Shown here: piece after piece, positions 9,729 to 64,000 of the stretch
Position numbering within the stretch: position 1 is the stretch's first letter
Layout of the letters: every line of letters begins with the position of its first letter
Program-made: the position numbers and the translations under genes
The notes under the pieces: generated by a model
What the model was told of the DNA's origin: nothing
Seen by the model: only the letters and a program-made list of their open reading frames with translations
Database searches by the model: none
Virus record (IMG/VR): IMGVR_UViG_3300012953_000016
Coordinates: 32,001-96,000 of that record
Direction: 5' to 3' (one strand)
Origin: a virus
Length of the DNA: 64,000 nucleotides

Positions 9729-9762
9729 GTTACTTTCTCCAGCTAAGGCCGTTGTACAGTAT

Positions 9763-9769
9763 TAAATAT
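9763..9769 (-). promoter_or_regulatory. Putative late-promoter motif ATATTTA
   Basis: About 35 nt upstream of the gp13-like start and downstream of a terminator, where a new promoter is needed. Confidence 0.45.
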
Positions 9770-9870
9770 ACGGCTCGGATCCAGACATTCCACACAGTTG
9801 TATGGAGCTCGTGAAAAAGTTGGGATGCTTGTGCAAATATTACACACAGGCGCTCAGAAAAAATTTGAAA

Positions 9871-9904
9871 AAAAATAAAAAAGGCGGGCATTGCTGCCCG
9901 CCTT
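9871..9904 (-). terminator. Rho-independent terminator
   Basis: Minus strand AAGGCGGGCA-GCAA-TGCCCGCCTT followed by a T-rich tract. Confidence 0.9.
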
Positions 9905-9930
9905 AGTTACAAATTAAGAACTCTTAATGT

Positions 9931-11289: not shown

Positions 11290-11432
11290 GATCTTTCTCC
11301 TTTTTGCATTGCATGATTCCGAAGCGCTGGCAAGTCAGCTGATCAAAAATGCTCCGGGCCTACTATTATGTATTGCAAGCAAATATAAACTGATCCATGT
11401 ATATTGTATCACAGGTATGGCAATTTTGCACG

Positions 11433-11468
11433 AAATAAAAAAAAGGGGCAGTCCGAAGACTGCCCCTT
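11433..11468 (-). terminator. Rho-independent terminator after the major capsid gene
   Basis: Minus strand AAGGGGCAGTC-TTCG-GACTGCCCCTT followed by a T tract. Confidence 0.92.
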
Positions 11469-11493
11469 AGTAATAAAGACTAACCCGTTCAGA

Positions 11494-36476: not shown

Positions 36477-37190
36477 TTAATTCTTAGAGATTTGAACTTC
36501 AAACTCTTTTACAGCACCTGACTGAATACCTACGATACTGATGACAGAAGAAATGACATTCTTGTCGCTAGCATTACCGTAAATAAGAAACTGCGAATCT
36601 GTCACTGATTTCGTTTCAACTGGTACCGTAACCCGGGAACCGCCGACTGAAGTTGTTGTCGGGTCACGGGTAACAATATACGTTGCAATATTGTCTGCAT
36701 CAACATTATCAGGCGTCATACCACGCAGCTGTAAAAACCTGCTAGGTACCTTAATAATAAATGCTTGATCCCTAAGTTCAACATCAATTGTACTCTCGTT
36801 CTGAATTTCTTGAGTAACAGTCAGCGTCACGCTAGATCCGGATCCGGATCGTGACATTGATAACGTCGTTCCAGTTGAATCTAACCCATCGCCGGCTAAT
36901 GCCAAACTTGGAAGTCTGATTAAGTTAGGATTTGAAACACTAACTAACTTATGTTTTAGTGCTAAGTTCCCGCTTGTTTGCGCCTCAAAAATCGGGGTAT
37001 TTTTTTCTATTTTTTATTTCCCGACCGTTCGGCCAAATTTTTCAATTATTGTGTAATCAACCTCATCATCGCCTAACGCAAATTTTACAATAGAAAAAGA
37101 ACCGTCATTTCTAGCTAAAAATGCTCGGCCTGTATCAGTTAAAACTGCATCTACTATGATGTTATTTGTTGAGTGATCTAAAAAACCCAT
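36477..37190 (-). pseudogene. Virion protein gene (237 codons) interrupted by an in-frame TAA at 37014-37016
   Basis: GAGGAG SD and ATG at 37190; MGFLDHSTNNIIVDAVLTDTGRAFLARNDGSFSIVKFALGDDEVDYTIIEKFGRTVGK*KIEKNTPIFEAQ... continues in frame into the annotated 142-aa ORF. Confidence 0.75.
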
Positions 37191-37206
37191 CTACATGCTC
37201 CTCAGA

Positions 37207-37213
37207 TAAATAT
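37207..37213 (-). promoter_or_regulatory. Putative late-promoter motif ATATTTA
   Basis: GATATATTTAT in a 27-nt gap, just upstream of the SD of the interrupted gene; same 11-mer as at 15.34 kb. Confidence 0.45.
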
Positions 37214-37217
37214 ATCG

Positions 37218-51400: not shown

Positions 51401-54400
51401 CGATAACTCTAACACCTCTGAGCATTGATCCACGAGATCCTTGTGAGTGCTCTGCTACAGAAGCTATTTTTCTGCGTGCTATATTTGAACCATAATCTAC
51501 TCGGCGGCGTCCATTTTCCCTAGTAATAGAAAGTGTTTTTCTCCCATACCTTTCATTAATAGACATTGAGCCAGAAACAACATCATCGGTATATGCACCT
51601 GCATTATACCCTATATCTTCGAGTTCGAACTTGTCGTGGACAGGTGTCTCAAACTGGAGTGCTTCATGGATTGCATCTGATGTAAGGTTCTGGTTTAGAT
51701 CGCCTTGTTTCTCTTTGCCGTCCTGGATGTAGGATCCAAAAAGTGTTATCTTCATCCTCGTCTGCCTAAACCCATGCCATTCATGCCAATCTTCTGCAGG
51801 CCACTCTATAGACCCGGGTGTACCTATCGGGACATCCAGTTTGTTGACACTGTTATCATGTGCGCCTGTATATTTGACTTCGGAGCCATCCCTAGTTGAG
51901 TACCTTAGATTTGAACCTAAGGTCATATGTGGGCCTGTTCCTTTAGTTGTTGCCCAACGATTATAAAATACCTCCGCAGACTGCCAGCCGAATACTAATT
52001 TATCATTCGGCATCAGGATGTACGGGCTATCTTGATTTTCTAGCTCAAATATATTCAGGTTAGAGTGATCATATCTTTTATGCTCATACCCAAAATCATA
52101 ATATCTGTCAATTATATCCTTACCTGGGACTGCGTTGAATAATGCACGGGCTGATGCAATATCATTTTCCTGACCTGTTCTTGTTCCGTTATGGGACGTC
52201 TTATAGTAAGACATGTACCCATTGGTACCACCTCTTGTGCCAACAACATATGATAATCCATCATTATGTTTAATCGGTCGTTTTACTGTACCTTCCATAA
52301 CATATGTACCTGAAACGAATAAATTAGTACTTGGTGATCCATCAAAGTCTAAAAACTCGTACCTGGGTGGCGTATATGATGTGCCATCAATTGGCTTTAA
52401 GACCTCTGACTTATAAGTAGCAAAAGTATTTACTTCACGTGACAAACCAGCCTCTAAAACATCATTTATGTCAATAGGCGATTCATTAACAGAACCATGA
52501 ATCGTCCACTGGCCGTATGTAACCATGGTTCTTGCAGTATGTTTTCTTGGTACTTCATTACCAGAAGAGTCATAATCAATATTAAACCATTTGTCACCTT
52601 CAGATGAACCAAACCTAGCATTATATAGTTGCCCTATATCACCGTCAGTTAAACGAGAGTTCCACAATGAAACATCTGCCATTTTTCCATCAAACAACTG
52701 GCTCGGCCGGCGGTACCTAAAGGTCCTGTATGTCCTGGCGCCACGGCGGGTTGTCTTAAATCGGCGGAGCATCCTTGAATCATATTCTTGGCCGATTGAA
52801 ACTCTGTCCATTTCATCAAACTCAAGACTATGTTCGCCATGTAGAGGAGAGTATACACCACCAACAGCGGAAAAATCGATACCAGGGACAGATGATACAT
52901 CATCCAACTTTTGAAACCTCATCCAGTATACTGATGATCCTGAGTTTGTCGCTAAGCCGGTTTGAGCATCAGGGGTTCTCCACCCTGCTCCTCTCCATGG
53001 AGCCCAAATCCTAGAATCATATCCTGCTGCAGTAGCAGCTACACCCGGGCCTCCGGAGGCTGCATCACTGTCAAAGGCATATCTCCATATATCATTTTGG
53101 GATCCTGGCAATGCGTGATATGTTGCGAGGTGGCAACTCATCTTTTGGCCGTTGACATATATATTCCACACAGACCCATGGGCTGGATCTATATGGTGTG
53201 TAAACCCAACATGATGCCATTGATTATCATTAATCTCTGTAGAACCATTGTCACGTACGGTATCAGTTATAACCTTATACCATCCCCTAGTTGTTACATC
53301 ATCAGCATCGATTGAGATTCCAGGAAGTGTACCAGGCGAAGCTGATGCACTAGTACGACATTTAAGTTTTAGCTCAGAAGTTGTGATTGTGTCATTTGCA
53401 TCTGCCTGGACGTGGAGCTGTAACCTATACCCATCCGGCGTCACTCCTTTCATGCGAGCCTTGTCGGCTGTATCGATCATAAAGATTAACCGGTTATTTC
53501 CCAATTTTGTATTAATAGAGAAAATAACAGGATCATTAGACTCTATATCACCATCAACCTTTACCCATGTAAAAAATGAAAAGTCAGGATATGTAGAGTG
53601 ATTTGCATTATGCCAAGATTCTATATCGGAAGGTACTGTCGGCCAGTACTCATTCGCACGTGGGAGTCTAGCATAAAATCTACTAGCACCAAAGTTCATA
53701 CCATATCGATACTTATCAGGTGTTCTAGAGATTGTTTTATCATACTCCCATGGGCCATCGTCACACCACTCTGCACTACCTTGGATATATGCCGGTGCAT
53801 TAACAGGGCCGGTTACCAACAGATTATTAAAATTGTTAGGATCAACTAAGTAGCGAGCAAGCAATTTACTTGATAGTTCATAATTCCCCTTGCTGTCTCT
53901 TATCTCAAAATCCTTCTCTAAAGGACAGTCAAAGAAATAAGGATTGTTACCATTAAGGGACACATCAACATTCTTACCGGCCTTGTATACACCACTATCC
54001 ATGTGGTATATTGCCTTGGCATCAATACCATCTAGTGCTGTGGACCAGACTGCAAAATCAGAAAAGCTACCAGTGTAGAGATTATCGTATGATAATTCGC
54101 CGAGATCGACGTCATTGTCGTCATCCGCATCCTCCCAATCAACATCAGCTCCTAAAATAACGTAATCTGAGGATTCAAAATACCATGGGTAGGCAGGATT
54201 ATATCCTATTGCAGACATTAGTTCTTCAGGCGTTAATGTAACACTTACCCCACCTATGACCTTTGACTCAAGGCCGACAAATGAGTATTGTAATGAAGCA
54301 GCTCGGGCCTGCCTGCTTGTCCAGGTATGTCCTGCGCCAGTACATGTTGCACTGTCATTTTCATGCGCAGGGTCACTAGCAGAACATGTTCCGTTAATTG

Positions 54401-57400
54401 TATCCCAATCAAATGACTCAGTCGCTGTATTCCATTTCCCATAATACGATTCATTTAAGGAGAGTGAACTAATACCGGCCTGCAATATATCCTCTACAGA
54501 TATATTTGCTTCACCGATTGTTACAGCTTCAGCGGCCTCGGTCGAGTCGCCCTTACGCCAAAGTAATTCACCATCATCATTTGTAAGCTGAGGTAAATTA
54601 TATTCTCCTATAAACTCACCATCAAGCCACAACTTAAATGATTGAGTCTCGCTTGAAAATGAAAAGACAGTGTGATGCCACAGACCGTCTGTTACTGCAT
54701 CAGCACTTTTTGCTCTTGTGTAAACTCTCCCAAGACCATTATCAACTAGGAACCTTAATGTGCCGTCCTTATATATTGACAACCATATTTTATTGGGTGC
54801 GCCTTTGTTAGAAGCGATTGTTAACAAGTTTGAATATTTTGCACCCGGATTTGTCGTCTTAAACCACAGGCTCTTAGAAAAACTTGAAAATGAACCAGCA
54901 GACATATCAGTTATCATCCATGCATCTGGCCAACCTGAGGTGCCTGGTTGTACCCAACGGACAAACCATGGGGTGTTCCCACTTGAGTCAGCATTAAAAT
55001 TATATGTGCTTGGATCTATAGTTGATGCATGATCTTGCCATATACCTTGCATTGAATAATCCGGATCATGCTCAATTATATTAACCCAGTCATCCGGATC
55101 TACGTATTCTGGTGATGAGATTGAATAACCATACTCATCGACAGCTGAGGCAACCTGAAATATTAATCCTTCATGGGCATATGTGTTGTTGTTATAGCTT
55201 TTGCCTTCCATACCAACATCAGGGGGCTCGTTAAGATTGACGTATTGATTTGCTACTGCCTGAATCAGCTTGTACCGCACAGTCGTGACACCATACAATT
55301 TATCGCCAAAATAAACCCTAACATTCTTTGTTATATCTTCAGACTGCCATGTCCCCGGTGCTGTCGGATCATTTGCAAAAGCAAAACCATAACCCCACGT
55401 TCCTGGCTGGTTATTGCTTGTAAAAGTCTCTAACTGTACAGGTGTACCGTCTGTGGGCCCAGAGTCTGAGTTCCAAAACCAGTCGCTTCCCGTTCCAGAT
55501 GCATCTTGTGCTATAGTACTGGGTATACTTTCAAATGGATCTTTTCCTGCTAAGTCTCCAAGGCTGGAAAACATGTATGTCGTCGACTGCGACATTTTTG
55601 CTGATTTTGTATAATCACCATGAGGAGATGCTACTGGGAACGTATCCCATACAGTCGGTGCACCGGGAGGGAATTCCCATGGAGAATCTTCTGCTAACTC
55701 AATGCTTGACGCATTAATTATCTTTAACTCTGCTAGGTCGTCGGTATCACCATACCCAGAAGATGAGGCGTCATCGACCCCATCCATATTAAGATCTGCT
55801 TTTACGCATGAATTGAACCAGTAATTGCCGGTGCCATCGGTCTCTTTGGTATCAAACCTAAACCATGCAGTTAATGCGGATGATTCATCATAATCATAGC
55901 TCGATCCATCCCACATATACATGTTTTTTGACGGAACACTAGAGTTTTGTACAACATTCCTATCATATCTAGGTGGATACCACCTGCGGGAAGGTTCTGA
56001 GTTTGAGTTATACTCATAGTTCCCTATCCAGTCACGTTGATTTAATATAAAGAAACTATTGATGGCTGCTTTATTATTAAATTTCTCATCTTCATTGTAC
56101 CGTCTAATCTTTCCGTCTGGGCCGACATCAAACATTATCGATCGACCTGAGTAGTCTGAGCCTTCGGACCAGTCGGCTTCAAATTCCAGCACAAACTTCT
56201 CTAATATAAAAGGTTTATCGATATAATTCGACATGTCTAACAATTGGCCTGGTGAGGCGTGAAACTTCGGGTGCATTGGAAAACCAAAATTACTAATTGG
56301 TAATGCTGCAGTCATAGAAGCAGATTGTATTATCTCTGTGCCCCTTGAAAAGCCTATGCATGCATTTTCGAAATATGTTTGCTGGAACTCAGCGTCTTTA
56401 AGTGTACCCCATGAACCTGCAAGGCCTGCATCGTATAATGAGTTTTCATTTACAAATTTGTCCCACTGATCCTTGGTTACATAGCCAGCAGCTAATGCCT
56501 GATCCCATGAAAGTGGTTGCCTTAATTCTTTTATGTGTCGGCCTGGGCCTATCTTTTCCCACTCTTTTGTCTCAAAGTTATAATAGACCATGGAATTATA
56601 TTTTTGAGAGCCATAAGGTACCCCTTCATTCGTTGCATCGTAACCGAAGCTAGTGGGAGTGTCGGTTGGCAGCTCAATCGTGAATTGCATTTTACTACGG
56701 AGGGGGGAAGAAAAACCTTCAAATACATCAGGCGAAATTCCTTGTTCAAAAAACTCATTATCAATGTCTATATCAATTTGATCATCAATAAATGGGCCTT
56801 TCTTAAATACCGTTTGATCCTCTGTAAATCTTAAACCGGCGTCAGCAATTCCCTTCCTTGTTGCACCAATAGTTACTAGTCCTGATTCTATTAACGTTCT
56901 TTCATAGTCATCAGAATATACATTTGGTGTCATGACATTCGAGTTTAGCCATGGAGATTCAATATATGCAGGGAATACAAAGTTATGCTCGCTGTATTCT
57001 CTCCATGTTTGCTCATTCCATTCCGGGAGCGTACCGACTATTGGCAACCACCCAGTTCCCGGGTCTGCCATAAACTCGTCTTCCGTACGCCAACCCAATG
57101 ATATATCAAATCTTTTTACCTCTGAGGTTGATTCATCAAACCAATATTCTCCATCATTGTATGTTGAACCATTTGTAGGGTCAGGTATACCATCATTATC
57201 ATAATCTGGTAAGTAGTTCTCAGGATCCCAACCTGCAAGAAATGATGTAGTTATCTCATTAGAAGAGTTTCTATATAGTTTATTGTTGTTAATGTCTAGA
57301 GACAAATTTATGTCTGTCGTGGCAATAACGTTGTACCCGTCAGAAGAAAAATCATCATCCGGCCGGTTTGCCCAAAAAATGACATTCTCTACCGACTTTT

Positions 57401-60398
57401 GTGAACGAGCAGGAAGAGTCGTAGGGTATGAAACTAGGTGCCCATCCCCGCCTGAAAATGAACCTGTGACTTCGCCTTTTCCGCCCGGCGTGTACTTAGC
57501 TGAATTTGAAATATGAACCTTTGCCTGATTGTCGGCATGAATTTCAAGGTTCCCAACCTTACCAGGAATCGTTTGCCTTAATAGTACTCTATCTCCATCA
57601 TGATGAGCTTCGATTTGTAGGCCGGAATTATTTACTGCCTTTGCAAATAATCCATTTATCTGGTTCCGGCTGCGTATTCTTCTACCGGATCTAACCTCAG
57701 TGTTTGCAGGGTTTGTTATTTTCCCCCTATTAAACTCAAAAGTTTCGCTAGTGGTGTCTTCAACATTTACTGTCCAACGATCACCGGTTGAGTGACCAGA
57801 AAATGATCCCCACTTCAACCTTATATTATTACCTGATGCATCTTCATTATCAATATCATCAAAATACCAAAATAGCCCTGTATAATTTATAACAAATTTT
57901 ACCTGGCACTTACCCCATGAAACTGCAGAACCAGGTTTTATCTTAAACTGGATTGACTCTGTTGTGACGTTTATATCAGTTGTAGACAAGTGGGGTTCAT
58001 TAGCCATATATTCATACTTGTTCCCGGGAACCTCTTCAGCAACGTGTTTTAATTCTTTCTCTGTAAATTTATGGCCATCTGCAAACGGTGCATAGGACAT
58101 AACGCCATTCCACCGCCCATACGTCGCATCATATTCATACGTACCTGAATCTGATTCGCTGGCTCTATACCTCTGCGACGGCATCAACTCAAAAATAGTG
58201 TTTGAAACAGTCTCAGCGCTGCTTGAGGGATCTAAACCGTCGAATCTAACCCATGTAGGGGAAGAATCGCTGGGGTTGAGTGAATAATATATCGCATAAT
58301 ATTCGTCACTAGCATTAGGGTCTGCACCTACCCTAGATACATCGCCTCTTGCGTATACATCAATATCAAATTTTAAGGGTAGGGCGGAAGATGTAGTATC
58401 AATCTCATTTAGATCAATCACCTCCGTATATATAAATCCATCATCTTCTATATTCCCATATTTCGCGTTGGTAATCGTATAACTTTTCTTCGCATTACCG
58501 GTGCCAATATACATGTCAGGTGACCAGTCAGTCCAGTTATTCCTATACCGGTAATCTTCTAAATTTGCCTTACGCCACTTAAACTTATCAGGCTTAGGTA
58601 AACCGGTTAGGACCCACTGCCCTGTATTTACGGTCGTATTTTGATCATATACTAACTCCCCAGTCGTACCGTCTTCAGTCCCAGAGTCACTGTTCCATGG
58701 ATTAGGCCAGGTGATCTTTATACCTTCAAGTTTTTTCTCTACGCTCTCTGTCATAGTACCTGCAACTAAATTGCAACCAGTAATAAACTCTGCGTCTGAA
58801 GTTATTGGCATTTCAAATTCTAGGGATGATACATCTGGGTCCGCTACATATCCGGTGCCTGGATCAACCTCAAGTAGTACACTAAATGTGCCCAGCGATG
58901 GATCAGCACCGCCTATTGCACTGGCAGGTTCATCAGAGCCGATTGCAGTAGAATGAGGAATTCCAATAGTACCAATAGATATTGTTAGCCTATAATCATA
59001 CTCTGTAGAAAAACTATCAATCCCTGTATATGTAGGGTCACTCCACGAAATACCGGTCCATTGTCCGGACACTTCTGGATTGTCTGTGTCTTCAAAGGTA
59101 CCTGAAAATGTGGGTGTAGGCCAAGTAGAAGATTCTACTATCTCGATTTCGTAAACTTGTTCTCTGATCAGCTCCGAATTTGATTCAACAACTAAATCAT
59201 CAGTAACAGTACTTTTACCAGCTGTTGCAGGAAGCAAATCTATTGACCCTGCAGAGTCAAACAGTGTTATAGTACTAGCATCACGGGGGCGGGCATAGAA
59301 ATATAACCATGCTGTTGCATATGCAGAGTCAAATATAATTGTTTTCGAGTCATCAAACGGGACGGCTGGTTCATTACCTGATATGCCACCTGGTCCGGAG
59401 CGGGATATTGATGGGTATGATAAGGGTTCACAATCATACTCATGTTGAATGACTCTGACCGGTTTATTCAGGAACCCGGAGGTCATTCCGAGACTAGGGT
59501 ATACCTTATTATGATATACTGCCCTAACCGATTCTTCTGTTAATACATCATTCCAGACAACAAACTCATGAATTTCTCCATCTAGCAATCTAGATAGTGA
59601 TGTGTCATCGGGTGCTGCATTACCAATTATACATGATGACTGGTACCCTCCGGATACTCCTAAGAATGCTCCAAGTGCCGGATTCGAATTTGAAGGGTGT
59701 TTCTCTGATAATTGACATTCTGATCCATTAATATAAATCTTTGCAGAATTATCACATGATGATGCGTCATGCACAGCCGCTATATGGAACCATACATTCG
59801 GCTCAAATATATTGCTGCTAGTTGTTGCAACATAGTCATTATCAGCATAATCGACGCGGTAGCCTATAGAATTTGTTCTATAACCCTCAGCATCATTTAA
59901 CATACCTGTGTATGTAAATAATCTAATCCCATGACTACCGTATGTTGGATCCTGGCCTCCGAATTGTACTATCGTGCCACGATCACCTTCACCAGCTGAA
60001 ACTATTTTTACCCAAGCAGCAAAAGAAAATCTAGATGTACCGGTGGTGCCTATTATATTATCCCACACAGTGCTATACCCAATATCAATATAAGGTATTT
60101 CAGATGAGCTATATGTTTGCAAAAACTCTACTGATGTATGTACAGTACCTGGGCCGTCGTCCGTTATTCTTCTCTTGATGTTTCCGTAATATGTACCGTC
60201 ATATGAGCTATCTAAAGATGCATCAGCGACAGTAGTACCCGGGCTTATGCTGGATCCTTTGCTTTCAGAAAACTTATACCATGCGACTAGTGAACTAGCA
60301 TCGCCGTCAGTATAGTGCAGGTCTCCAATCTCTGGAGAAGATACTTTATATGATTCTGTTAGTTCATAGCTTTCTAATCTACGAGGTATTTTGGGCAT
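48468..60398 (-). CDS. Giant acidic virion protein with at least three LamG/ConA-like domains, 3976 aa
   Basis: Three LamG signatures: FSFAAWVK..WFHIAAV..IYING..GEIHEFVVWN; FSKSLWFK..WHHTVF..LWLDG..GSFSDFAVWS; FSFFTWVK..WHHVGF..IYVNG..GKMADVSLWN. Confidence 0.8.
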   Translation of the reverse strand: MPKIPRRLESYELTESYKVSSPEIGDLHYTDGDASSLVAWYKFSESKGSSISPGTTVADASLDSSYDGTYYGNIKRRITDDGPGTVHTSVEFLQTYSSSEIPYIDIGYSTVWDNIIGTTGTSRFSFAAWVKIVSAGEGDRGTIVQFGGQDPTYGSHGIRLFTYTGMLNDAEGYRTNSIGYRVDYADNDYVATTSSNIFEPNVWFHIAAVHDASSCDNSAKIYINGSECQLSEKHPSNSNPALGAFLGVSGGYQSSCIIGNAAPDDTSLSRLLDGEIHEFVVWNDVLTEESVRAVYHNKVYPSLGMTSGFLNKPVRVIQHEYDCEPLSYPSISRSGPGGISGNEPAVPFDDSKTIIFDSAYATAWLYFYARPRDASTITLFDSAGSIDLLPATAGKSTVTDDLVVESNSELIREQVYEIEIVESSTWPTPTFSGTFEDTDNPEVSGQWTGISWSDPTYTGIDSFSTEYDYRLTISIGTIGIPHSTAIGSDEPASAIGGADPSLGTFSVLLEVDPGTGYVADPDVSSLEFEMPITSDAEFITGCNLVAGTMTESVEKKLEGIKITWPNPWNSDSGTEDGTTGELVYDQNTTVNTGQWVLTGLPKPDKFKWRKANLEDYRYRNNWTDWSPDMYIGTGNAKKSYTITNAKYGNIEDDGFIYTEVIDLNEIDTTSSALPLKFDIDVYARGDVSRVGADPNASDEYYAIYYSLNPSDSSPTWVRFDGLDPSSSAETVSNTIFELMPSQRYRASESDSGTYEYDATYGRWNGVMSYAPFADGHKFTEKELKHVAEEVPGNKYEYMANEPHLSTTDINVTTESIQFKIKPGSAVSWGKCQVKFVINYTGLFWYFDDIDNEDASGNNIRLKWGSFSGHSTGDRWTVNVEDTTSETFEFNRGKITNPANTEVRSGRRIRSRNQINGLFAKAVNNSGLQIEAHHDGDRVLLRQTIPGKVGNLEIHADNQAKVHISNSAKYTPGGKGEVTGSFSGGDGHLVSYPTTLPARSQKSVENVIFWANRPDDDFSSDGYNVIATTDINLSLDINNNKLYRNSSNEITTSFLAGWDPENYLPDYDNDGIPDPTNGSTYNDGEYWFDESTSEVKRFDISLGWRTEDEFMADPGTGWLPIVGTLPEWNEQTWREYSEHNFVFPAYIESPWLNSNVMTPNVYSDDYERTLIESGLVTIGATRKGIADAGLRFTEDQTVFKKGPFIDDQIDIDIDNEFFEQGISPDVFEGFSSPLRSKMQFTIELPTDTPTSFGYDATNEGVPYGSQKYNSMVYYNFETKEWEKIGPGRHIKELRQPLSWDQALAAGYVTKDQWDKFVNENSLYDAGLAGSWGTLKDAEFQQTYFENACIGFSRGTEIIQSASMTAALPISNFGFPMHPKFHASPGQLLDMSNYIDKPFILEKFVLEFEADWSEGSDYSGRSIMFDVGPDGKIRRYNEDEKFNNKAAINSFFILNQRDWIGNYEYNSNSEPSRRWYPPRYDRNVVQNSSVPSKNMYMWDGSSYDYDESSALTAWFRFDTKETDGTGNYWFNSCVKADLNMDGVDDASSSGYGDTDDLAELKIINASSIELAEDSPWEFPPGAPTVWDTFPVASPHGDYTKSAKMSQSTTYMFSSLGDLAGKDPFESIPSTIAQDASGTGSDWFWNSDSGPTDGTPVQLETFTSNNQPGTWGYGFAFANDPTAPGTWQSEDITKNVRVYFGDKLYGVTTVRYKLIQAVANQYVNLNEPPDVGMEGKSYNNNTYAHEGLIFQVASAVDEYGYSISSPEYVDPDDWVNIIEHDPDYSMQGIWQDHASTIDPSTYNFNADSSGNTPWFVRWVQPGTSGWPDAWMITDMSAGSFSSFSKSLWFKTTNPGAKYSNLLTIASNKGAPNKIWLSIYKDGTLRFLVDNGLGRVYTRAKSADAVTDGLWHHTVFSFSSETQSFKLWLDGEFIGEYNLPQLTNDDGELLWRKGDSTEAAEAVTIGEANISVEDILQAGISSLSLNESYYGKWNTATESFDWDTINGTCSASDPAHENDSATCTGAGHTWTSRQARAASLQYSFVGLESKVIGGVSVTLTPEELMSAIGYNPAYPWYFESSDYVILGADVDWEDADDDNDVDLGELSYDNLYTGSFSDFAVWSTALDGIDAKAIYHMDSGVYKAGKNVDVSLNGNNPYFFDCPLEKDFEIRDSKGNYELSSKLLARYLVDPNNFNNLLVTGPVNAPAYIQGSAEWCDDGPWEYDKTISRTPDKYRYGMNFGASRFYARLPRANEYWPTVPSDIESWHNANHSTYPDFSFFTWVKVDGDIESNDPVIFSINTKLGNNRLIFMIDTADKARMKGVTPDGYRLQLHVQADANDTITTSELKLKCRTSASASPGTLPGISIDADDVTTRGWYKVITDTVRDNGSTEINDNQWHHVGFTHHIDPAHGSVWNIYVNGQKMSCHLATYHALPGSQNDIWRYAFDSDAASGGPGVAATAAGYDSRIWAPWRGAGWRTPDAQTGLATNSGSSVYWMRFQKLDDVSSVPGIDFSAVGGVYSPLHGEHSLEFDEMDRVSIGQEYDSRMLRRFKTTRRGARTYRTFRYRRPSQLFDGKMADVSLWNSRLTDGDIGQLYNARFGSSEGDKWFNIDYDSSGNEVPRKHTARTMVTYGQWTIHGSVNESPIDINDVLEAGLSREVNTFATYKSEVLKPIDGTSYTPPRYEFLDFDGSPSTNLFVSGTYVMEGTVKRPIKHNDGLSYVVGTRGGTNGYMSYYKTSHNGTRTGQENDIASARALFNAVPGKDIIDRYYDFGYEHKRYDHSNLNIFELENQDSPYILMPNDKLVFGWQSAEVFYNRWATTKGTGPHMTLGSNLRYSTRDGSEVKYTGAHDNSVNKLDVPIGTPGSIEWPAEDWHEWHGFRQTRMKITLFGSYIQDGKEKQGDLNQNLTSDAIHEALQFETPVHDKFELEDIGYNAGAYTDDVVSGSMSINERYGRKTLSITRENGRRRVDYGSNIARRKIASVAEHSQGSRGSMLRGVRVIDSFERYYDTVVASPAAYHGFNGNGILEWSSPWFNGGTKQRSLCFGEPRPSDMKVVVPEKTIIRCREEGWYEDLPQGVIKLTFSRLWTADYLYGNYSLPYYEHAPDSNTSGDKTVAYAKLHSVPWYISTEVKTDFLYAAHNNGTSPGKWFYQLADITSSYDPAQTVDGTRYEYKPYAAGQNYMFTTSKETISEIDKDNHLRETYFSIYDANGDLHVVHLDWGDVASPEASNNVITVSLEGWDTGDNGWSPGIPSSLLSEYNVDLDGTGGSANDSLDLIQKQYNDDITGWSSSSASDLNAIKLNEDDLHPSGDMYMPADALANRVGAAINSSSMFEVLEVESSPGVYAFEDAEYKVGYSTYSIYVRTISGGLTAADPSGTSNSTEGGGIPGIHYHSPEIDSSTLYRNYYRYISTNSAAIVSCKYLAPDLREEGPLAYNNWGMVQEISNDRITFTDSGTPDAGTLATTTVDTSSEGDGYDIGAIAGDIGLSSSVTGVSEYIQNLRPNNPDQFRRQLPVIEEKDGFERISDYTLDGCFMQIHDAKDNAYNIWYKLDDDNGQAPAPPTTSGILVTIDTVPPGAPASTIARETMLALSGSHSDKFELFYNDGDDYFTVLNTQDGSTKDADSTIMGLPTTTGFYLTDESGAEYDNQTIRWSWTGGIGFFSFAAQAVDTESYAVGKTPEDPAGEEYWHGDPIQEGVDPYHVNTNSTIDAYWLGSYPFEPKYSSLKRGRTNKDNTSWNVTEWDDETGEFVETTTEQTGFSSIIITGSNMPSIINDPTLEAVDENGALLSTGSSYPVLTVIGDGSPQPIGSRYDISAKTSENFLKFYFGTGDNWQKNPSIEIVTIYSDGYDWPSAIPKIRGWKYGLRSALPENTNAVYSHNSYGQFRDLLEQRKDSRFYRKFSRGPWAGRSLVTSAPVRCRFVSEDGVLTTPEKTWSQNLSRFCTSSLPYFDDGRPRNREYPINEDELNTVFTTIKG

Positions 60399-60552
60399 CT
60401 CTTTTGTCCTATCTCACGAGGCTATCAATATTATAATCTAAATTTAGCTATTGTTATCTGATTAATCATAACGTCGCTTGGTGTACATAATTTTACTTTC
60501 ATACACAAATAATTAGGACTTTCGATAGAAAGTAGGCTTGTATTTACAAGAC

Positions 60553-60580
60553 AAAAAAAAGACCCCGCCGGAGCGGGGCC
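60553..60580 (-). terminator. Rho-independent terminator
   Basis: Minus strand GGCCCCGC-TCCG-GCGGGGTC followed by T8. Confidence 0.9.
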
Positions 60581-61115
60581 TGACGTTTTACCGCCTGTTA
60601 ACTTATTTTCCTCGGGGCTTACGCCCTTTCCTTGCTATCTCCCCCGCCTCTCGACAGGTTCGGTAATTGTTTAAGTCAACTCCTATTCCCATAGGGATTG
60701 GGTTGATGTAATTTTCCTGGATGAAAAATTAAAATATTGTCTCCAATATCCCAAACAGCAGGGTCTCTTGTTCTTGTACTTAATTTCTTGACCTGATGAT
60801 TAAAAGTTTTAATAGAGCCTATTAAGCTCGCTGTAGAATTTTGAATTTGTAACTTATCACGAAGAAAATTTTATTCGTCACCGAACACAACCAACCGTAA
60901 TTGAGTAATTCTATCCACAATTTCATTTATTCTTCATTCCCTTACTCTCGTTCCTCCTCCTAGCCCTGCTGCCGCTCCTAAACAAATGCGACAGCGCAAA
61001 TAATCCCATGGTGTTCAACCAGTTGCCCAATTGTACATAGTTATCATAAGACAGTCTATCTTAATAAGAAAGCTATTGGAATCTTTACCTCCTCAGATTG
61101 CTAATGACCTGATCA
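60553..61115 (-). ncRNA. Candidate large structured non-coding RNA (~550 nt), family not recognised
   Basis: No credible ORF; at least seven helices, three GNRA-capped hairpins, G-U pairs that work only on the minus strand, a 10-bp long-range helix, and a terminator at the 3' end. The 5' end is uncertain. Confidence 0.6.
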
Positions 61116-61132
61116 TATATATTGCACCGGAG

Positions 61133-64000
61133 TTATTTTTTCCAACCGCCAAACGTAATACTATCAGTTCCAGATGGCATATCGTTATATATCATTCCAG
61201 CAGCAGACGAAATGTGATCATGAGGACGCAATTCGCTAGTAGACATATTCATTGATGATACAACATCATTGACATGAGGGCCAGAAGAATATCCTCCACT
61301 AAAATTATTCCCTAATACGTTACCCTTAACATCTTCATTGTAGTGATGGAATGTTACGTCTGTATTTCCAGTGGGGCCTGGGCTACCTTGTATCAATCTT
61401 ATACCACATAATTTGTCATGATAAAAATATGTGTTACGTTCCTCAAGTGTGGGGCTGAGTATGAACGTATTCAAAAACACATCACTGCTAGAGAATTTTA
61501 CATATGGCATCCCGGTGTTCACAGTTGTTTTTATAAGGCCTGTTTCAAGCGTTGAAGTCGGGTCTTGGTACAAATTATTCCCTGCGCTATCTGTTGCATG
61601 TTGAGTTATATTATCATAAAGCATAGTGGCCGTTATATCAAGCGACGAATTGTTTATTTTCTCTGTCGTTGCCTGTAAAAGCTGTTTAAACGTTTTATGT
61701 CCACCGATGTCAACATTTTCATCCTGATCCATGGAAAACGTGCGAATGTCTGAGACGTCCGTTGGGACGCTTGAATAACCTGGTTCATGGATAGAAGGTA
61801 TTACGTCCCGGTTGACTTTGTGATAGCCTAAGTTTCTGGAAGTTATCTTTAATGTGAAATGACCCCTAGACCAACCATTTTGAAGTGCTTCCTCAATAGG
61901 TGGTGAATCAGGATCATATGCATATTGGTTAAACCAGTCAGGCGTTATCTTTACAAGTCTCTCAGAATCATAATCTGCTGTAAACCATGTACCGGCAACA
62001 GGTTCGCCAGCTGGCCAGCCGTCGTCGGGAACACCTGCCGGTAAATCGATATCAATCAAGTCCCACATATCTTCATATGCAGGAGGCTTTATGTATTCAC
62101 ATATAAATACCTTTGATTGGTTCGGGTTTCTAAATTTCCTGACTGCACGAAGGGTTTTTGACATCAGCCTCTTGATAGAATCAGTATTATTGACTACAAC
62201 CTCAATTAATTGTGGGTTTAGTTTCTCATAATTTTCCCAACCCTCAAAGGCATGCCACTGAAATTCATTTAGGTTTGCTTGCTCATAGCCGCCTGCAATA
62301 ATCCATTCATCAAAATCTGAAATCCCATCGCCACTAGTATCTGCCGGATGAGGCAAACCCGTATATGCGGCTATCGTCTCGCCGGCGTCAGAGGTATATA
62401 ATCCCTGGCCAAGGGTATCGATACTCATTGTTTGGGTATCCGGATCTGGATCCCAACCGGTACCTTTATCAAAATCGTCTGGTGGAATATCACCATCAGA
62501 GTCGTACTTGGGGCGGGCACACTGGATTGTTAACCCTGAATCATTGGACCACCGGGGTGGCTTTACAACTCGAGTTACATATATTTCCTCAGCAATCGCC
62601 CATTCACTCTCAGATGATGTACCAGGGTACCCTAGCTCAATAGCAGTCTTATAGCCAGATGTTACTTCATCATAATATAAAATTGTCTCTGAATCTATGT
62701 AGGCATCAAATTCAGGTGCGGTGCTACCCGGAATAGGTGTAGGGTCACCATCAGCGTTTAATTCTAGGGGATCAACAACGTTGAACCATACTGCATATCT
62801 TCCTCCGGAAACTGTATTAAGAACATGGTCTGTGCTTTCGTCTATTGCATCAGTTATAACAAAGTGTTTTCCTGCGTAATCCTCTACACTAGGGACAGAT
62901 GTTGTTATATCGGAAGGTTCAACTAGATCAGGAACAAACTCATAATATAGTGCCCACTCTTCCTCGGTAAGATCTACAAACATTATATCATCTTTGTCGA
63001 CATAAGGTGCAAAATCTGAGGCAGGTGTCGGCGCCGTTGAGTATGCCGCGAAACTGTTTGTGCCGTCCGTCCATAGCTTGTTTCCTAGCGTGTCTCTTTT
63101 TTGAAATGTATTATCAACATCAGGAAATCTTATGTAGTAAGTTTCAGGGCGTAGGATTGAGATTAGCTCTTCCCCATCATTCTCTAATATACCATCATTA
63201 TCAAATTCAAAGCGCTTTTTACTGCCGGAAGAATCTTCTAATGTAAATGCCTGCCCATTTAATGTTCGGAGGTATTCTATTTCCCAATTAGGTGATGGCG
63301 TCCAGGTGTGGGCAGCACCCTCACATGCTGCTTGATCTGTATTATGTGCTGTAACCCCACTTGAACAAGATCCATACGTTTCATCTATTACCTGACCTGA
63401 ATAGTTGAATACTAAAGAACCGGAAGCATATAGGCTACTATCGTCTAGATCTTTTAAGTTGTTAGTAACATGCTCTTTGTATGTTGTTTCTACAAACGGA
63501 CTAATCTTAGATTCTTGCCAGGTTAGGTAACCAGGGAGGGGAGCACAGCCGACTGAATCTTCGTGGGTTTTAGCTATAGCCTCGAATTGCCATACATCAC
63601 CTGAATTGTGGCCCTGGTTATTGTCAAAAACTGCATATAATCCATGATCTAGATCAAGCCTGCCCGCGCGTCGCGCGAAGAGAAACGACAATTTCACCGC
63701 ATTAATCAGTCCGATATCAGCGGTGACCGCGGGGGAGGACCACACACGAAACTTAATCGTGGAGGCTGTAAAGAACGGTATTATGGGTGATGGGGTCGTG
63801 GGTGTAGATGAATAAGTCCAGTGGGGAGTCTGTGTGTATTCATGAGTTGCATCTTCGCCTGCAGGGTGCGAGTCATTATTCAATTGAATTATTCCACCAT
63901 CATCAATATCTATCCATGCAGAGCCGTCATGAAACTGAATTTTATAATACTCGGTAGGGTCATTAATGTCGCCGCGGCCAAAGGCTTTAAGCGTAACAGC
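61133..64000 (-). CDS. C-terminal part of a large acidic virion protein (5' end outside the window)
   Basis: The frame of the 916-aa ORF stays open to base 64000 (AVTLKAFGRGDINDPTEYYKIQFHDG...); shares several modules with the 3976-aa protein. Confidence 0.85.
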   Translation of the reverse strand, partial: AVTLKAFGRGDINDPTEYYKIQFHDGSAWIDIDDGGIIQLNNDSHPAGEDATHEYTQTPHWTYSSTPTTPSPIIPFFTASTIKFRVWSSPAVTADIGLINAVKLSFLFARRAGRLDLDHGLYAVFDNNQGHNSGDVWQFEAIAKTHEDSVGCAPLPGYLTWQESKISPFVETTYKEHVTNNLKDLDDSSLYASGSLVFNYSGQVIDETYGSCSSGVTAHNTDQAACEGAAHTWTPSPNWEIEYLRTLNGQAFTLEDSSGSKKRFEFDNDGILENDGEELISILRPETYYIRFPDVDNTFQKRDTLGNKLWTDGTNSFAAYSTAPTPASDFAPYVDKDDIMFVDLTEEEWALYYEFVPDLVEPSDITTSVPSVEDYAGKHFVITDAIDESTDHVLNTVSGGRYAVWFNVVDPLELNADGDPTPIPGSTAPEFDAYIDSETILYYDEVTSGYKTAIELGYPGTSSESEWAIAEEIYVTRVVKPPRWSNDSGLTIQCARPKYDSDGDIPPDDFDKGTGWDPDPDTQTMSIDTLGQGLYTSDAGETIAAYTGLPHPADTSGDGISDFDEWIIAGGYEQANLNEFQWHAFEGWENYEKLNPQLIEVVVNNTDSIKRLMSKTLRAVRKFRNPNQSKVFICEYIKPPAYEDMWDLIDIDLPAGVPDDGWPAGEPVAGTWFTADYDSERLVKITPDWFNQYAYDPDSPPIEEALQNGWSRGHFTLKITSRNLGYHKVNRDVIPSIHEPGYSSVPTDVSDIRTFSMDQDENVDIGGHKTFKQLLQATTEKINNSSLDITATMLYDNITQHATDSAGNNLYQDPTSTLETGLIKTTVNTGMPYVKFSSSDVFLNTFILSPTLEERNTYFYHDKLCGIRLIQGSPGPTGNTDVTFHHYNEDVKGNVLGNNFSGGYSSGPHVNDVVSSMNMSTSELRPHDHISSAAGMIYNDMPSGTDSITFGGWKK

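What the first reader, a model, noticed from the sequence alone, without database searches (positions are those of the whole stretch)
60553..61115. Candidate novel ~550-nt structured ncRNA between two giant virion genes
This is the only long non-coding gap in a tightly packed region. Seen on the minus strand: a long-range helix GGCAGCAGGG (60973-60964) / CCCUGCUGUU (60763-60754); hairpins UGCG-CUGU-CGCA (60987-60998), GAGCUU-AAU-AGGCUC (60815-60829), AUAUUG-GAGA-CAAUAU (60734-60749), AAUUUUUC-AUCCA-GGAAAAUU (60710-60730), UCAAC..UCCC-UAU-GGGA..GUUGA (60676-60706), CCUGUC-GAGA-GGCGGG (60643-60658) and GGGC-GUAA-GCCC (60615-60626); then a UCCG-capped terminator. Three loops are GNRA tetraloops, and the wobble pairs are G-U on the minus strand but C-A on the plus strand, which points to selection on an RNA fold. 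Purine-rich unpaired tracts and a repeated AUCAGGUCA (61105-61113, 60789-60797) are also present. I see no tRNA, tmRNA, RNase P or group II domain-5 hallmarks. Inference: a large phage RNA in the size class of ROOL/GOLLD-type RNAs, or a new class tied to virion assembly.
Basis: partly seen in the sequence, partly recalled or inferred. Interest (0 to 1): 0.85.

Follow-up and report, generated by a model that had tools for sequence, protein, structure and literature searches.

The report
Abundant orphan noncoding RNA in marine phage
The gap between two giant virion genes of an uncultured marine T4-like phage holds a gene for a roughly 0.5-kb RNA that makes no protein, is plentiful in ocean RNA samples, matches no catalogued RNA family, and has an unknown job.

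Summary
Window 60399-61132 is the largest internal ORF-free gap of a 123.5-kb IMG/VR phage record with a T4-like capsid. All stated hairpins are at the stated coordinates.

Two distant relatives lack the block about 60553-61115. One has no gap at all. The other keeps only the promoter-like leader of the 3976-aa gene. So the block is a lineage-specific cassette ending in a strong intrinsic terminator.

RNA-library contigs from two studies cover just this block: 60622-61110 and 60592-61097. In one run the contig's depth is 392.7, against 2-5.5 for contigs on the flanking genes. A roughly 95%-identical natural variant breaks all three small ORFs. It diverges half as much as the flanking coding DNA, keeps or rebuilds the hairpins, and leaves all 9 isolated substitutions structure-neutral. 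GNRA-capped hairpins number 6 against 0.63 in shuffles, and this is the only such hotspot in the genome.

Against an "ornate" fold: the whole-RNA folding energy is not beyond shuffles (z -1.49), and the 10-bp long-range helix and the 9-mer repeat are at chance level.

There is no match in Rfam, including ROOL, GOLLD and group I introns. No homologue was found elsewhere. No link to virion assembly is shown.

Verdict: a real, selected, abundant orphan phage ncRNA, mechanism unknown. Other first-reader notes of this scan cover the same stretch of the same genome; none covers other DNA.

The parts
61133..64000 (-). 3' part of the upstream giant gene. It is 2696 aa and runs to 69223 in window numbering, beyond the window's end. 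Stop TAA at 61133-61135.
   Evidence: No Pfam or PHROG family matches its last 955 aa. The C-terminal 500 aa are 61% identical to L002.
61114..61145 (-). Candidate promoter for the RNA, overlapping the end of the upstream gene. It reads TTGGAA (61145-61140), an 18-nt spacer, then TATATA (61121-61116), within CAATATATATG (61124-61114). Not proven.
   Evidence: Read. The AT-rich element is also present behind the stop codon in L004. It was not reported by the consensus scan, which allows spacers of 16-18 nt but needs 9 of 12 matches. The RNA contigs begin at 61110 and 61097.
60553..61110 (-). The non-coding RNA gene, about 558 nt from the inferred start to the end of the terminator U-run. It is a cassette absent from both relatives.
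   Evidence: absence. (RNA contigs). (no conserved ORF). (no Rfam family).
60592..61110 (-). Core covered by high-depth contigs of RNA libraries. X3: 60622-61110, depth 29.1, 0 differences. X9: 60592-61097, depth 392.7, 21 substitutions and 5 gap letters.
   Evidence: table 8. The DNA run X2 reads on across both ends (records 12 and 13).
61016..61033 (-). Hairpin of 7 bp with a GCAA loop. The variant turns two wobble pairs into Watson-Crick pairs (61029 U.G to C-G; 61019 G.U to A-U).
   Evidence: local fold -6.8 to -10.1 kcal/mol.
60987..60998 (-). Hairpin UGCG-CUGU-CGCA. No variation seen.
60925..60963 (-). Purine-rich tract starting UAGGAGGAGGAAC, predicted mostly unpaired (0.71-0.84). It is invariant in the variant and looks like the phage's own ribosome-binding motif.
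60843..60911 (-). Long irregular hairpin with a GNRA tip. The tip (60888-60871) is remodelled in the variant by 2 deleted letters and 3 substitutions, and is again GNRA-capped (GUGA to GAAA). A-U becomes G-U at 60870 and at 60847.
60815..60829 (-). Hairpin GAGCUU-AAU-AGGCUC. No variation seen.
60676..60754 (-). Three adjacent hairpins of the 3' domain: a GAGA-capped one (loop 60743-60740), AAUUUUUC-AUCCA-GGAAAAUU (60730-60710), and 60706-60676. The only change is A60681 to U, in a bulge.
60643..60658 (-). Hairpin CCUGUC-GAGA-GGCGGG. In the variant, 8 of its 16 positions change and a 5-bp hairpin re-forms (-9.1 against -7.9 kcal/mol). The loop is no longer GNRA.
60615..60626 (-). Hairpin GGGC-GUAA-GCCC. 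The first loop letter changes in the variant (G to C), so this GNRA loop is not conserved.
60553..60581 (-). Intrinsic terminator: a GC-rich stem of 8-9 pairs, a UCCG loop and U8 (60560-60553).
   Evidence: It drives all the weak sRNA look-alike hits.
60399..60545 (-). Leader and promoter region of the 3976-aa gene. It is not part of the RNA. It is conserved with L004, including a 23-of-23 identical element (60525-60503) and ATAACA-16-TATAAT (60457-60430).
48468..60398 (-). Downstream giant gene: 3976 aa with LamG-type domains.

Best explanation
The block at about 61110 to 60553 (minus strand) is a stand-alone accessory gene for a non-coding RNA of about 0.5 kb in an uncultured marine T4-like large phage. 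It resembles an RNA 'moron' placed between two giant virion genes.

Shown:
- It encodes no conserved ORF.
- It ends in a strong intrinsic terminator.
- RNA libraries of two studies contain contigs that match just this block, at far higher depth than contigs on the neighbouring genes.
- Its sequence is conserved better than the coding flanks in a natural variant.
- It carries an exceptional cluster of GNRA-capped hairpins that the variant keeps or rebuilds.
- Relatives with the same flanking genes lack it.

Inferred:
- It is transcribed from an AT-rich promoter that overlaps the end of the upstream gene.
- It is terminated at its own terminator. The 3976-aa gene is then served by its own conserved promoter and leader.
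- It accumulates because the hairpin-rich 3' domain and terminator protect it.

My committed guess for its action has low confidence, about 0.2. It works in trans as a stable decoy: a largely unpaired, invariant UAGGAGGAGGAAC tract, with five AGGAG motifs in all (the phage's own ribosome-binding motif), is displayed between stable hairpins. That tract would titrate a host factor that reads such purine-rich sites, such as a translational repressor or an RNA-binding defence or decay factor. It is not a part of the virion.
For: Non-coding:
- No minus-strand ORF of 40 aa or more under code 11 or TAG=Q.
- In the variant, the 34-aa ORF gets a 2-nt deletion at 60880, the 35-aa ORF loses its TTG start at 61029, and the 29-aa ORF gets two separate 1-nt deletions.

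Expression (4 of the 23 runs listed were laid, and all are contigs):
- X3 holds a single contig, 60622-61110, depth 29.1, 0 differences, and nothing else within 59400-62400.
- X9 (another study) holds 60592-61097 at depth 392.7. Its four other listed contigs, on the flanking genes, have depth 2-5.5.
- An Illumina adapter is joined at 61097.
- The DNA run X2 is flat at 0-9.9 (mostly 1.2-5.3) and reads across both RNA ends.

Link to the phage: X10 record 5 (60749-61252) bridges the RNA and the upstream gene, and carries the same substitutions as the X9 RNA contig.

Selection:
- 21 substitutions in 506 nt (4.2%), against 148 in 1770 nt (8.4%) on coding flanks (Fisher P=0.001).
- 9 of 9 isolated substitutions are neutral to the MFE computed from the reference alone. 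Four are pair-preserving and five are unpaired (simulation P=0.028).
- Two heavily changed hairpins re-form.

Structure: 6 GNRA hairpins against 0.63 in shuffles (0 of 300 reach 6), and a unique genome hotspot.

Cassette:
- L002 has TAATG with no gap.
- L004/L036 has a 176-nt gap that aligns only to the first roughly 20 nt and the last roughly 150 nt of the window's gap.

Terminator.

Decoy idea:
- AGGAG occurs 5 times against 1.2 expected (P=0.004).
- 49 of 72 phage ORFs carry an SD-like motif, against an 11% background.
- The central tract is 0.71-0.84 unpaired and unchanged in the variant.
Against: - All expression evidence comes from assembled contigs. They cannot show strand, true ends or a promoter. 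The tool itself warns that contig depth is a poor measure of expression and that RNA libraries can hold DNA.
- The high-depth contigs stop 11-41 nt before the terminator stem, so the 3' end is not shown.
- Global folding energy is not beyond shuffles (z -1.49; 7 of 100 shuffles fold as well). The 5' two thirds have z about 0, and the ensemble is diffuse.
- Only one variant lineage is available, so there is no real covariation statistic. Transitions often preserve pairs by chance.
- Two of six GNRA loops are lost in the variant (60622; 60652-60649).
- No homologue was found in IMG/VR, one metagenome scan, GTDB genomes or GenBank phages. The age and breadth of the RNA are therefore unknown.
- For the decoy idea: GGA as such is not enriched (16 against 14.6, P=0.38). 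The AGGAG P-value is one of six motifs tried. No binding partner is known.
- The RsmY look-alike hit (20.8 bits against a cut-off of 57) rests mostly on the terminator.
- The promoter is unproven and does not match the TATATTTA motif found before three other genes.
Confidence: 0.6

Rival explanations
1. Same RNA, different origin. It is the processed, nuclease-resistant 3' UTR of the upstream 2696-aa gene's long mRNA. It would be a 3'UTR-derived stable RNA without a promoter of its own.
For: - The RNA contigs begin only 23-36 nt behind the stop codon.
- The consensus scan reported no promoter at that place.
- The terminator would then be the upstream gene's own terminator. Other gaps of this genome have a terminator right behind the stop codon.
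Against: - Contig depth is 392.7, against 5.5 or less on the upstream gene in the same run. This would need a very large difference in stability.
- Other terminators of this genome lie about 10-30 nt behind their stop codons, not about 550 nt.
- An AT-rich -10-like element with a TTGGAA 18 nt upstream sits just before the contig start.
Confidence: 0.17
2. It is a long leader of the 3976-aa gene. Transcripts start behind the upstream stop codon and mostly end at a conditional terminator (attenuator or riboswitch-like). The abundant RNA is then the prematurely terminated leader.
For: - The RNA lies directly upstream of, and on the same strand as, the giant gene.
- A strong terminator is followed by the gene.
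- Other first-reader notes propose alternative pairings next to the terminator (e1-6136729).
- Terminated leaders are commonly abundant in transcriptomes (general knowledge).
Against: - L004 keeps the same promoter-like leader (60399-60545, 23 of 23 identical core) without the block. L002 has no spacer at all. The gene therefore does not need the block.
- A separate promoter-like site (ATAACA-16-TATAAT) lies between the terminator and the ATG, and is conserved in L004.
- No riboswitch or leader family matches.
- The variant changes 3 of the 5 letters of the arm proposed for the alternative helix, while the local hairpin re-forms.
Confidence: 0.08
3. It is non-functional inserted DNA, such as a decayed gene or mobile-element remnant. 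It happens to lie between a promoter and a terminator, so a useless transcript accumulates.
For: - Orphan status: no homologue was found anywhere.
- It is absent from relatives.
- The global MFE is not beyond shuffles.
Against: - It diverges half as much as the coding flanks (4.2% against 8.4%), whereas neutral DNA should diverge more.
- The unique GNRA-hairpin hotspot.
- Hairpins are rebuilt after multiple changes.
- There are no repeats, terminal inverted repeats or other copies in the genome.
Confidence: 0.06
4. It is a very divergent or rearranged ribozyme. An example would be a stand-alone or permuted group I-type RNA, like those this scan has reported behind large phage genes.
For: - The position right behind the stop codon of a large gene of a T4-like marine phage, together with many GNRA hairpins, resembles earlier findings of this scan (e1-3729962, e1-5373870, e1-6031253). 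These are leads only.
Against: - Intron_gpI gives no match at E<=10, either in the 1-kb search with lax filters or in the whole record, where 11 candidates were scored.
- No other ribozyme family matches at E<=10.
- The core P7-type words (GACUA/UAGUC, recalled consensus) are absent from the sequence.
- The RNA ends in a classical terminator.
Confidence: 0.03

Closest known systems
The roughly 800-nt non-coding RNA of Vibrio phage ICP1, between gp139 and gp140 (PMC7567579; passages read)
   Same: Both lie in the one large ORF-free gap of a tightly packed lytic-phage genome. Both are far more abundant than neighbouring transcripts. Both are of unknown function and have no Rfam family (for the ICP1 gap).
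   Different: No sequence similarity: blastn and nhmmer find nothing meaningful. ICP1 is not T4-like. Its RNA lies next to the lysis cluster and is about 800 nt. The ICP1 evidence comes from a controlled infection time course; the evidence here comes from metatranscriptome contigs.
ROOL and GOLLD large ornate RNAs of phages and prophages (Rfam families; PMC5737381 seen in the search listing only; 10.1101/2024.12.08.627333 listing and start of abstract only)
   Same: The size class (about 0.5-0.8 kb), the phage association, accumulation during infection, and unknown function.
   Different: No Rfam match even at E<=10. It is not next to tRNA genes. The global fold is not thermodynamically distinct. 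Multimer or cage formation is untested.
Phage 'morons': accessory transcription units inserted between late genes (concept recalled from the lambdoid-phage literature; no paper read here)
   Same: The block is present in one lineage and absent between the same two genes in relatives. It has its own terminator and sits between virion genes.
   Different: Its product is an RNA, not a protein. Its promoter may be a pre-existing one, since the AT-rich element is also present in L004.
CsrB/RsmY/RsmZ-type protein-sponge RNAs
   Same: It is an abundant, terminator-ended RNA with repeated purine-rich (A)GGA-containing motifs between hairpins. There is a weak RsmY look-alike hit (E=0.012).
   Different: The score is 20.8 bits against the gathering score of 57, and the hit rests on the terminator. 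GGA is not enriched. The motifs are AGGAG in mostly unstructured tracts, not GGA in hairpin loops.
Stand-alone or permuted group I ribozymes behind phage genes
   Same: The genomic setting and the richness in GNRA hairpins.
   Different: There is no group I signal at all.

Membership tests
ROOL / GOLLD (Rfam) | A match to the family's covariance model | tested here: not met
   0 matches at gathering score in the 64-kb window; 13 matches at E<=10 in 60300-61300, and none is to ROOL, GOLLD, OLE, raiA or HEARO.
ROOL / GOLLD (Rfam) | Frequent location next to tRNA genes in phages or prophages (as stated in PMC7567579) | tested here: not met
   the only ARAGORN hit is 41951-42041 on the opposite strand, 19 kb away, inside a long ORF.
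ROOL / GOLLD (Rfam) | RNA-only multimeric assembly (cryo-EM) | not testable with these tools
   This needs the in vitro transcript.
Group I intron / group I-type ribozyme (RF00028) | A match to the covariance model or conserved core (P3-P8, P7 guanosine site) | tested here: not met
   0 matches at E<=10 in the whole record (11 candidates scored); none in the 1-kb stretch. The recalled P7 words are absent.
CsrB/RsmY/RsmZ sponge RNAs | A model match, and many GGA motifs displayed in hairpin loops | tested here: not met
   RsmY scores 20.8 bits against 57. GGA occurs 16 times against 14.6 in shuffles (P=0.38).
Independent ncRNA gene (promoter - RNA - intrinsic terminator) | An intrinsic terminator at the 3' end | tested here: met
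   9 pairs, 7 of them G-C, a 4-nt loop and U8.
Independent ncRNA gene (promoter - RNA - intrinsic terminator) | Its own promoter and a primary 5' end | tested here: inconclusive
   TTGGAA-N18-TATATA is read but was not listed. The contig starts at 61110 and 61097, and the adapter at 61097, cannot show a primary end.
Independent ncRNA gene (promoter - RNA - intrinsic terminator) | A discrete transcript more abundant than its neighbours | tested here: met
   contig depth is 392.7 against 2-5.5 (X9). It is the only contig within 59400-62400 in X3. This is contig-level evidence only.
Independent ncRNA gene (promoter - RNA - intrinsic terminator) | No conserved reading frame | tested here: met
   all three ORFs of 29-35 aa are broken in the variant.
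Structured RNA (conserved secondary structure) | Statistically supported covariation across many homologues | tested here: inconclusive
   Only one variant lineage is available. 9 of 9 isolated substitutions are neutral (P=0.028), and 2 hairpins are rebuilt. There are not enough sequences for R-scape.
Phage moron-type accessory cassette | Present or absent between the same flanking genes in related phages | tested here: met
   two relatives, at 43-48% aa identity in the upstream protein, lack the block.

The most novel reading that the evidence does not exclude
This is the founding member of a new class of large, GNRA-rich structured RNAs of marine T4-like large phages. It would fold, perhaps through tetraloop-receptor contacts or self-assembly as in ROOL and GOLLD, into a defined particle. 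That particle would have an active role of its own in infection, such as binding a host machine or defence system, or catalysis. On this reading it is not a simple decoy or a by-product transcript, and it is abundant enough to be one of the more plentiful single viral RNAs in surface-ocean RNA samples.
Probability: 0.15. Interest if true: 0.8.

Novelty: new variant of a known kind. Interest (0 to 1): 0.58.

Why it matters
A few lytic phages make one very abundant, long non-coding RNA whose function nobody knows. Examples are the roughly 800-nt RNA of ICP1, the lncRNAs of phage K, and GOLLD and ROOL in prophages.

This is a further, unrelated example from an uncultured marine T4-like large phage. 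It comes with unusually direct support for a sequence-only find. It is seen as a discrete, high-depth contig in RNA libraries of two independent studies. It is under purifying selection. It is clearly an optional cassette.

It gives experimenters a defined 0.5-kb transcript to synthesise for SHAPE, cryo-EM and pull-downs, and a clear deletion to make if a host is found. It also shows that orphan RNA genes can be recognised from a single genome by a GNRA-hairpin hotspot together with public RNA runs.

It does not by itself solve what such RNAs do.

Tried and rejected
Homologue searches that found nothing useful:
- blastn against GenBank phages.
- tblastn of the upstream protein against phages.
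- IMG/VR protein-pattern scans found only the L002 phage.
- One metagenome scan found L003 (the same contig as L002) and L004.
- Pattern scans: the 21-mer gave 0 loci. The 16-mer gave 25 loci, none extending beyond the seed. The 20-mer in GTDB genomes gave 1 chance hit, L033. The leader 17-mer gave L036, the same phage as L004, plus 2 chance hits.
- BLAST and nhmmer of the RNA against the whole records G001 (69.5 kb, 23% complete) and G002 (70.4 kb, 19% complete) gave nothing. G001 has no ORF-free gap of 200 nt or more, and G002 has five of 234-361 nt. These records are fragments, so absence elsewhere in those genomes is not shown.
- Fragment-sized protein searches: 1 hit for the upstream C-terminus (P0001, 55% identity, on an 891-nt contig) and 0 for the downstream N-terminus.

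Other readings tested and dropped:
- Coding under another genetic code.
- Repeats, a DGR template, a CRISPR array or other copies in the genome. There are only 12-13-nt chance matches.
- An antisense target. No complementarity of 14 nt or more exists anywhere in the 123.5 kb. The duplex with the downstream leader is not better than shuffles: 19 of 25 shuffles are as good or better. The scan of all 72 translation-start regions timed out.
- Similarity to the ICP1 ncRNA gap.
- Group I intron.
- CsrB-like GGA enrichment.
- A shared late promoter. TATATTTA occurs 3 times, all intergenic, but not in front of the RNA.

Limits of the run data:
I draw nothing from them.
- The X10 oligo-dT run has flat depth of 0-4.8 over gap and flanks. 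I do not read this as evidence for or against expression.

Literature:
- Searches found no description of this RNA. They cannot search by sequence, and supplements are closed, so an unnamed listing in a supplementary table of marine sRNAs cannot be excluded.
- The marine psRNA and IMES RNA literature is recalled only and was not read.
Full report
WHAT IS THERE. The window is part (32001-96000) of a 123,515-nt IMG/VR virus record that CheckV rates 36% complete. Nearly all genes run on the minus strand; my greedy ORF call gives 73 of 77. The capsid, portal and terminase are T4-like: phrog_138, phrog_213 and phrog_2. The nearest capsid proteins are in an uncultured 484-kb phage, Flavobacterium phage immuto and Microcystis phage Mel-JY01, at 46-51% identity. 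The flagged interval lies between the TAA stop (61133-61135) of a 2696-aa gene and the ATG (60398) of a 3976-aa LamG-domain gene. At 734 nt it is the largest internal ORF-free stretch of the record; the next is 312 nt. The remaining hairpins appear in the computed folds.

NOT CODING, NOT A KNOWN RNA. The gap has no minus-strand ORF of 40 aa or more under code 11 or with TAG read as Gln. Code 4 opens only an out-of-frame 142-aa reading across the end of the upstream gene, and that needs five TGA codons read through. Rfam 15 gives 0 matches at gathering score in the whole window. At E<=10 it gives 13 weak matches in 60300-61300. Most lie on the terminator; the best are STnc100 at 24.1 bits against 47 and RsmY at 20.8 against 57. 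None is to ROOL, GOLLD, OLE, an intron or a ribozyme. Intron_gpI was searched over the whole record and gave nothing at E<=10. ARAGORN finds nothing in the gap.

IT IS AN OPTIONAL CASSETTE. I found two distant relatives with the same pair of giant genes. In L002 (an IMG/VR contig, 47-48% identity in the upstream protein) the two genes overlap as TAATG, so there is no spacer at all. In L004 (a metagenome contig; L036 is the same phage in IMG/VR; 43% identity) the spacer is 176 nt. It aligns with the first roughly 20 nt behind the window's stop codon and with the last roughly 150 nt before the ATG. That last part includes a 23-of-23 identical element (60525-60503) and a shared ATAACA-16-TATAAT-type site. 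The block from about 61115-61122 to about 60552-60556 has no counterpart. They run from a candidate transcription start to the last U of an intrinsic terminator (stem 60580-60561, UCCG loop, U8). The RNA sequence has no other copy and no extended complement in the 123.5 kb. BLAST and nhmmer find nothing in the held parts of the two relatives, which are 19-23% complete.

IT IS TRANSCRIBED AND ABUNDANT. A search of public runs with 60399-61400 listed 23 runs, of which 20 hold part of the stretch. Nine of those are on record as RNA, and the holders come from 10 studies. I laid four runs on 59400-62400. All are Logan contigs, so strand, ends and fine depth cannot be read.
- X3, a metatranscriptome of 122.6 million letters, has one contig in these 3 kb: 60622-61110, depth 29.1, with no difference from the window.
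- X9, a metatranscriptome of another study, has a contig at 60592-61097 with depth 392.7. Its four other listed contigs lie on the flanking genes at depth 2-5.5. An Illumina adapter is joined at 61097, which suggests that many cDNA fragments end there.
- X2, a DNA run, is flat (0-9.9, mostly 1.2-5.3), and its contigs read across both places where the RNA contigs stop. The tool rates that pattern a weak hint of RNA ends.
- X10, an oligo-dT library, is flat at 0-4.8.

By my arithmetic, the RNA contig accounts for about 1-2 in 10,000 letters of X3 and of X9. X10's record 5 (60749-61252) joins the RNA to the upstream phage gene and carries the same substitutions as X9's RNA contig. So the abundant RNA has the sequence of the phage copy, and no cellular look-alike is needed to explain it. 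The high-depth contigs stop 11-41 nt before the terminator stem, so termination at that hairpin is inferred and not shown.

A NATURAL VARIANT SHOWS SELECTION. X9 and X10 carry a variant phage. On contigs over the coding flanks it differs at 148 of 1770 positions (8.4%). Some stretches are counted in both runs. I left out X10 record 3, which has 3 differences in 151 nt and is partly leader. In the RNA the variant differs at 21 of 506 positions (4.2%), plus 5 gap letters (Fisher P=0.001). Eighteen of the 21 substitutions are listed by the tool. The other three probably lie near the contig end at 60592-60621.

All three small ORFs of the gap are broken in the variant:
- The 34-aa ORF has a 2-nt deletion at 60880.
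- The 35-aa ORF loses its start codon at 61029.
- The 29-aa ORF has two separate 1-nt deletions.

Against a structure predicted from the reference alone, 9 of 9 isolated substitutions are neutral. Four keep their pair: U.G to C-G at 61029, G.U to A-U at 61019, and A-U to G-U at 60870 and 60847. Five are unpaired. Random placement of the same changes gives a mean of 6.5 neutral, P=0.028. Two hairpins carry clustered changes and re-form. At 60658-60643, 8 of 16 positions change and a 5-bp hairpin results. At the tip 60888-60871, two letters are lost and three changed, one pair (U60887-A) is lost, and the loop goes from GUGA to GAAA. This is supportive, but it comes from one lineage. It is not a covariation test.

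HOW STRUCTURED IS IT. The whole 580-nt stretch folds at -152 kcal/mol, against -140.1 +/- 8.0 for shuffles (z -1.49; 7 of 100 shuffles fold as well). The plus strand gives z +0.32. In 120-nt windows, only the 3' 200 nt are more stable than shuffles (z -1.4 to -3.2, partly from the terminator). The 5' two thirds are at z about 0, and coding windows nearby also reach -2 to -4.5. The ensemble is diffuse, with a mean base-pair distance of 116. The 10-bp long-range helix is not special: 40 of 40 shuffles have a helix of 10 bp or more, and the MFE of the 551-nt version replaces it.

What is exceptional is the number of GNRA-capped hairpins. There are 6 with a stem of at least 4 bp (loops at 61026, 60881, 60743, 60690, 60652 and 60622), against 0.63 +/- 0.84 in 300 dinucleotide shuffles, none of which reaches 6. 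Over the whole record the transcribed strand has 0.44 such hairpins per 551 nt. The only 6 of 2460 windows with 5 or more all lie at this locus, and the plus strand never exceeds 4. Two of the six GNRA loops are not kept in the variant. My reading is a string of stable, partly conserved local hairpins with flexible purine-rich linkers. A single compact fold is not shown.

HOW IT MAY WORK. The RNA carries AGGAG five times, against 1.2 expected (P=0.004, one of six motifs tried). GGA itself is not enriched. AGGAG-type motifs precede 49 of 72 ORFs of this phage, against an 11% background, so this is the phage's ribosome-binding word. None of the five sites in the RNA has a start codon at working distance (read). 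The central UAGGAGGAGGAAC tract is predicted 71-84% unpaired and is unchanged in the variant. With low confidence, I therefore favour a trans-acting decoy that displays such tracts between protective hairpins. A cis role as leader of the giant gene is less likely, because L004 keeps that gene's conserved leader and promoter without the block. A virion-assembly role has no support, because relatives build the same virion genes without the RNA.

The promoter is unproven. TTGGAA-N18-TATATA (61145-61116) lies within CAATATATATG just upstream of the contig start. It differs from TATATTTA, which occurs three times on the transcribed strand, always intergenic: twice 28-34 nt before a called start, and once just ahead of the ATG at 37190 of the split gene.

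COMPARISON WITH WHAT IS KNOWN. The nearest parallel is functional, not by descent. Vibrio phage ICP1's most abundant transcript is a roughly 800-nt non-coding RNA in its one 1-kb ORF-free gap, and its role is unknown (PMC7567579, passages read). I fetched that gap. It shares no similarity with this RNA and is likewise absent from Rfam. Phage K lncRNAs are likened to GOLLD and ROOL by position and abundance (PMC9241854, one passage read). Earlier reports of this scan describe stand-alone or permuted group I ribozymes in similar positions. I tested that lead and found no group I signal.

The RNA is thus a new, so far orphan, family within the loosely defined kind 'abundant large phage ncRNA of unknown function'. 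Other first-reader notes of this scan cover the same stretch of the same genome (e1-6136742, e1-6136743, e1-6136729). None concerns other DNA.

VERDICT. Confidence that this is a genuine, selected, abundant ncRNA gene is about 0.85. Confidence in the full statement, including own promoter and trans action, is about 0.6. Confidence in the decoy mechanism is about 0.2.

Noticed in passing
window 60399-60545 (minus strand); L004 5487-5637: The roughly 150 nt before the 3976-aa gene are far better conserved at the DNA level than the flanking proteins (43-48% aa identity). They include a 23-of-23 identical element, TCGAAAGTCCTAATTATTTGTGT (60525-60503), and GATAACAAT...TATAATATTG. This is probably a phage-specific promoter or operator, or a structured 5' leader of the giant gene. 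L002 lacks it entirely.
   Followed up: partly
window 37214-37207, 15346-15339, 9770-9763 (minus strand): TATATTTA occurs only 3 times on the transcribed strand of the 123.5-kb record and 0 times on the other strand. All three are intergenic. Two lie 28-34 nt before an ATG, and one sits at the head of the split gene at about 37190. It is a candidate late-promoter core of this phage.
   Followed up: partly
window 36906-37217: My ORF call lists this 312-nt stretch as a gap. It begins with TATATTTA, an SD motif and an ATG, and reads like coding sequence up to a TAA in an A-rich run.
   Followed up: no
window 41951-42041 (+): ARAGORN calls a 91-nt tRNA-Asn with anticodon ATT on the non-transcribed strand, inside the 1546-aa ORF. 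It is very likely a false positive.
   Followed up: no
L004 5638 onward / L036 9941-10444, against window 59478-60398: The L004/L036 homologue of the 3976-aa protein starts about 300 residues later. It lacks the N-terminal LamG-type module and joins the window's protein at about residue 307. The N-terminal domain of this giant protein is therefore modular between relatives.
   Followed up: no
window about 60404 and 60331-60366 (read laying loose ends): Contigs in X10 and X2 match the start of the giant gene and then continue with unlike sequence just upstream of, or inside, its first 70 nt. This suggests that further related phages in those samples have different content at this junction.
   Followed up: no
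window 9729-9930, 11290-11493; genome 29242-29422: The other intergenic gaps have the usual layout: a GC-rich terminator hairpin 10-30 nt behind the stop codon, then 120-150 nt to the next start. This contrasts with the 550-nt distance at the RNA locus.
   Followed up: partly
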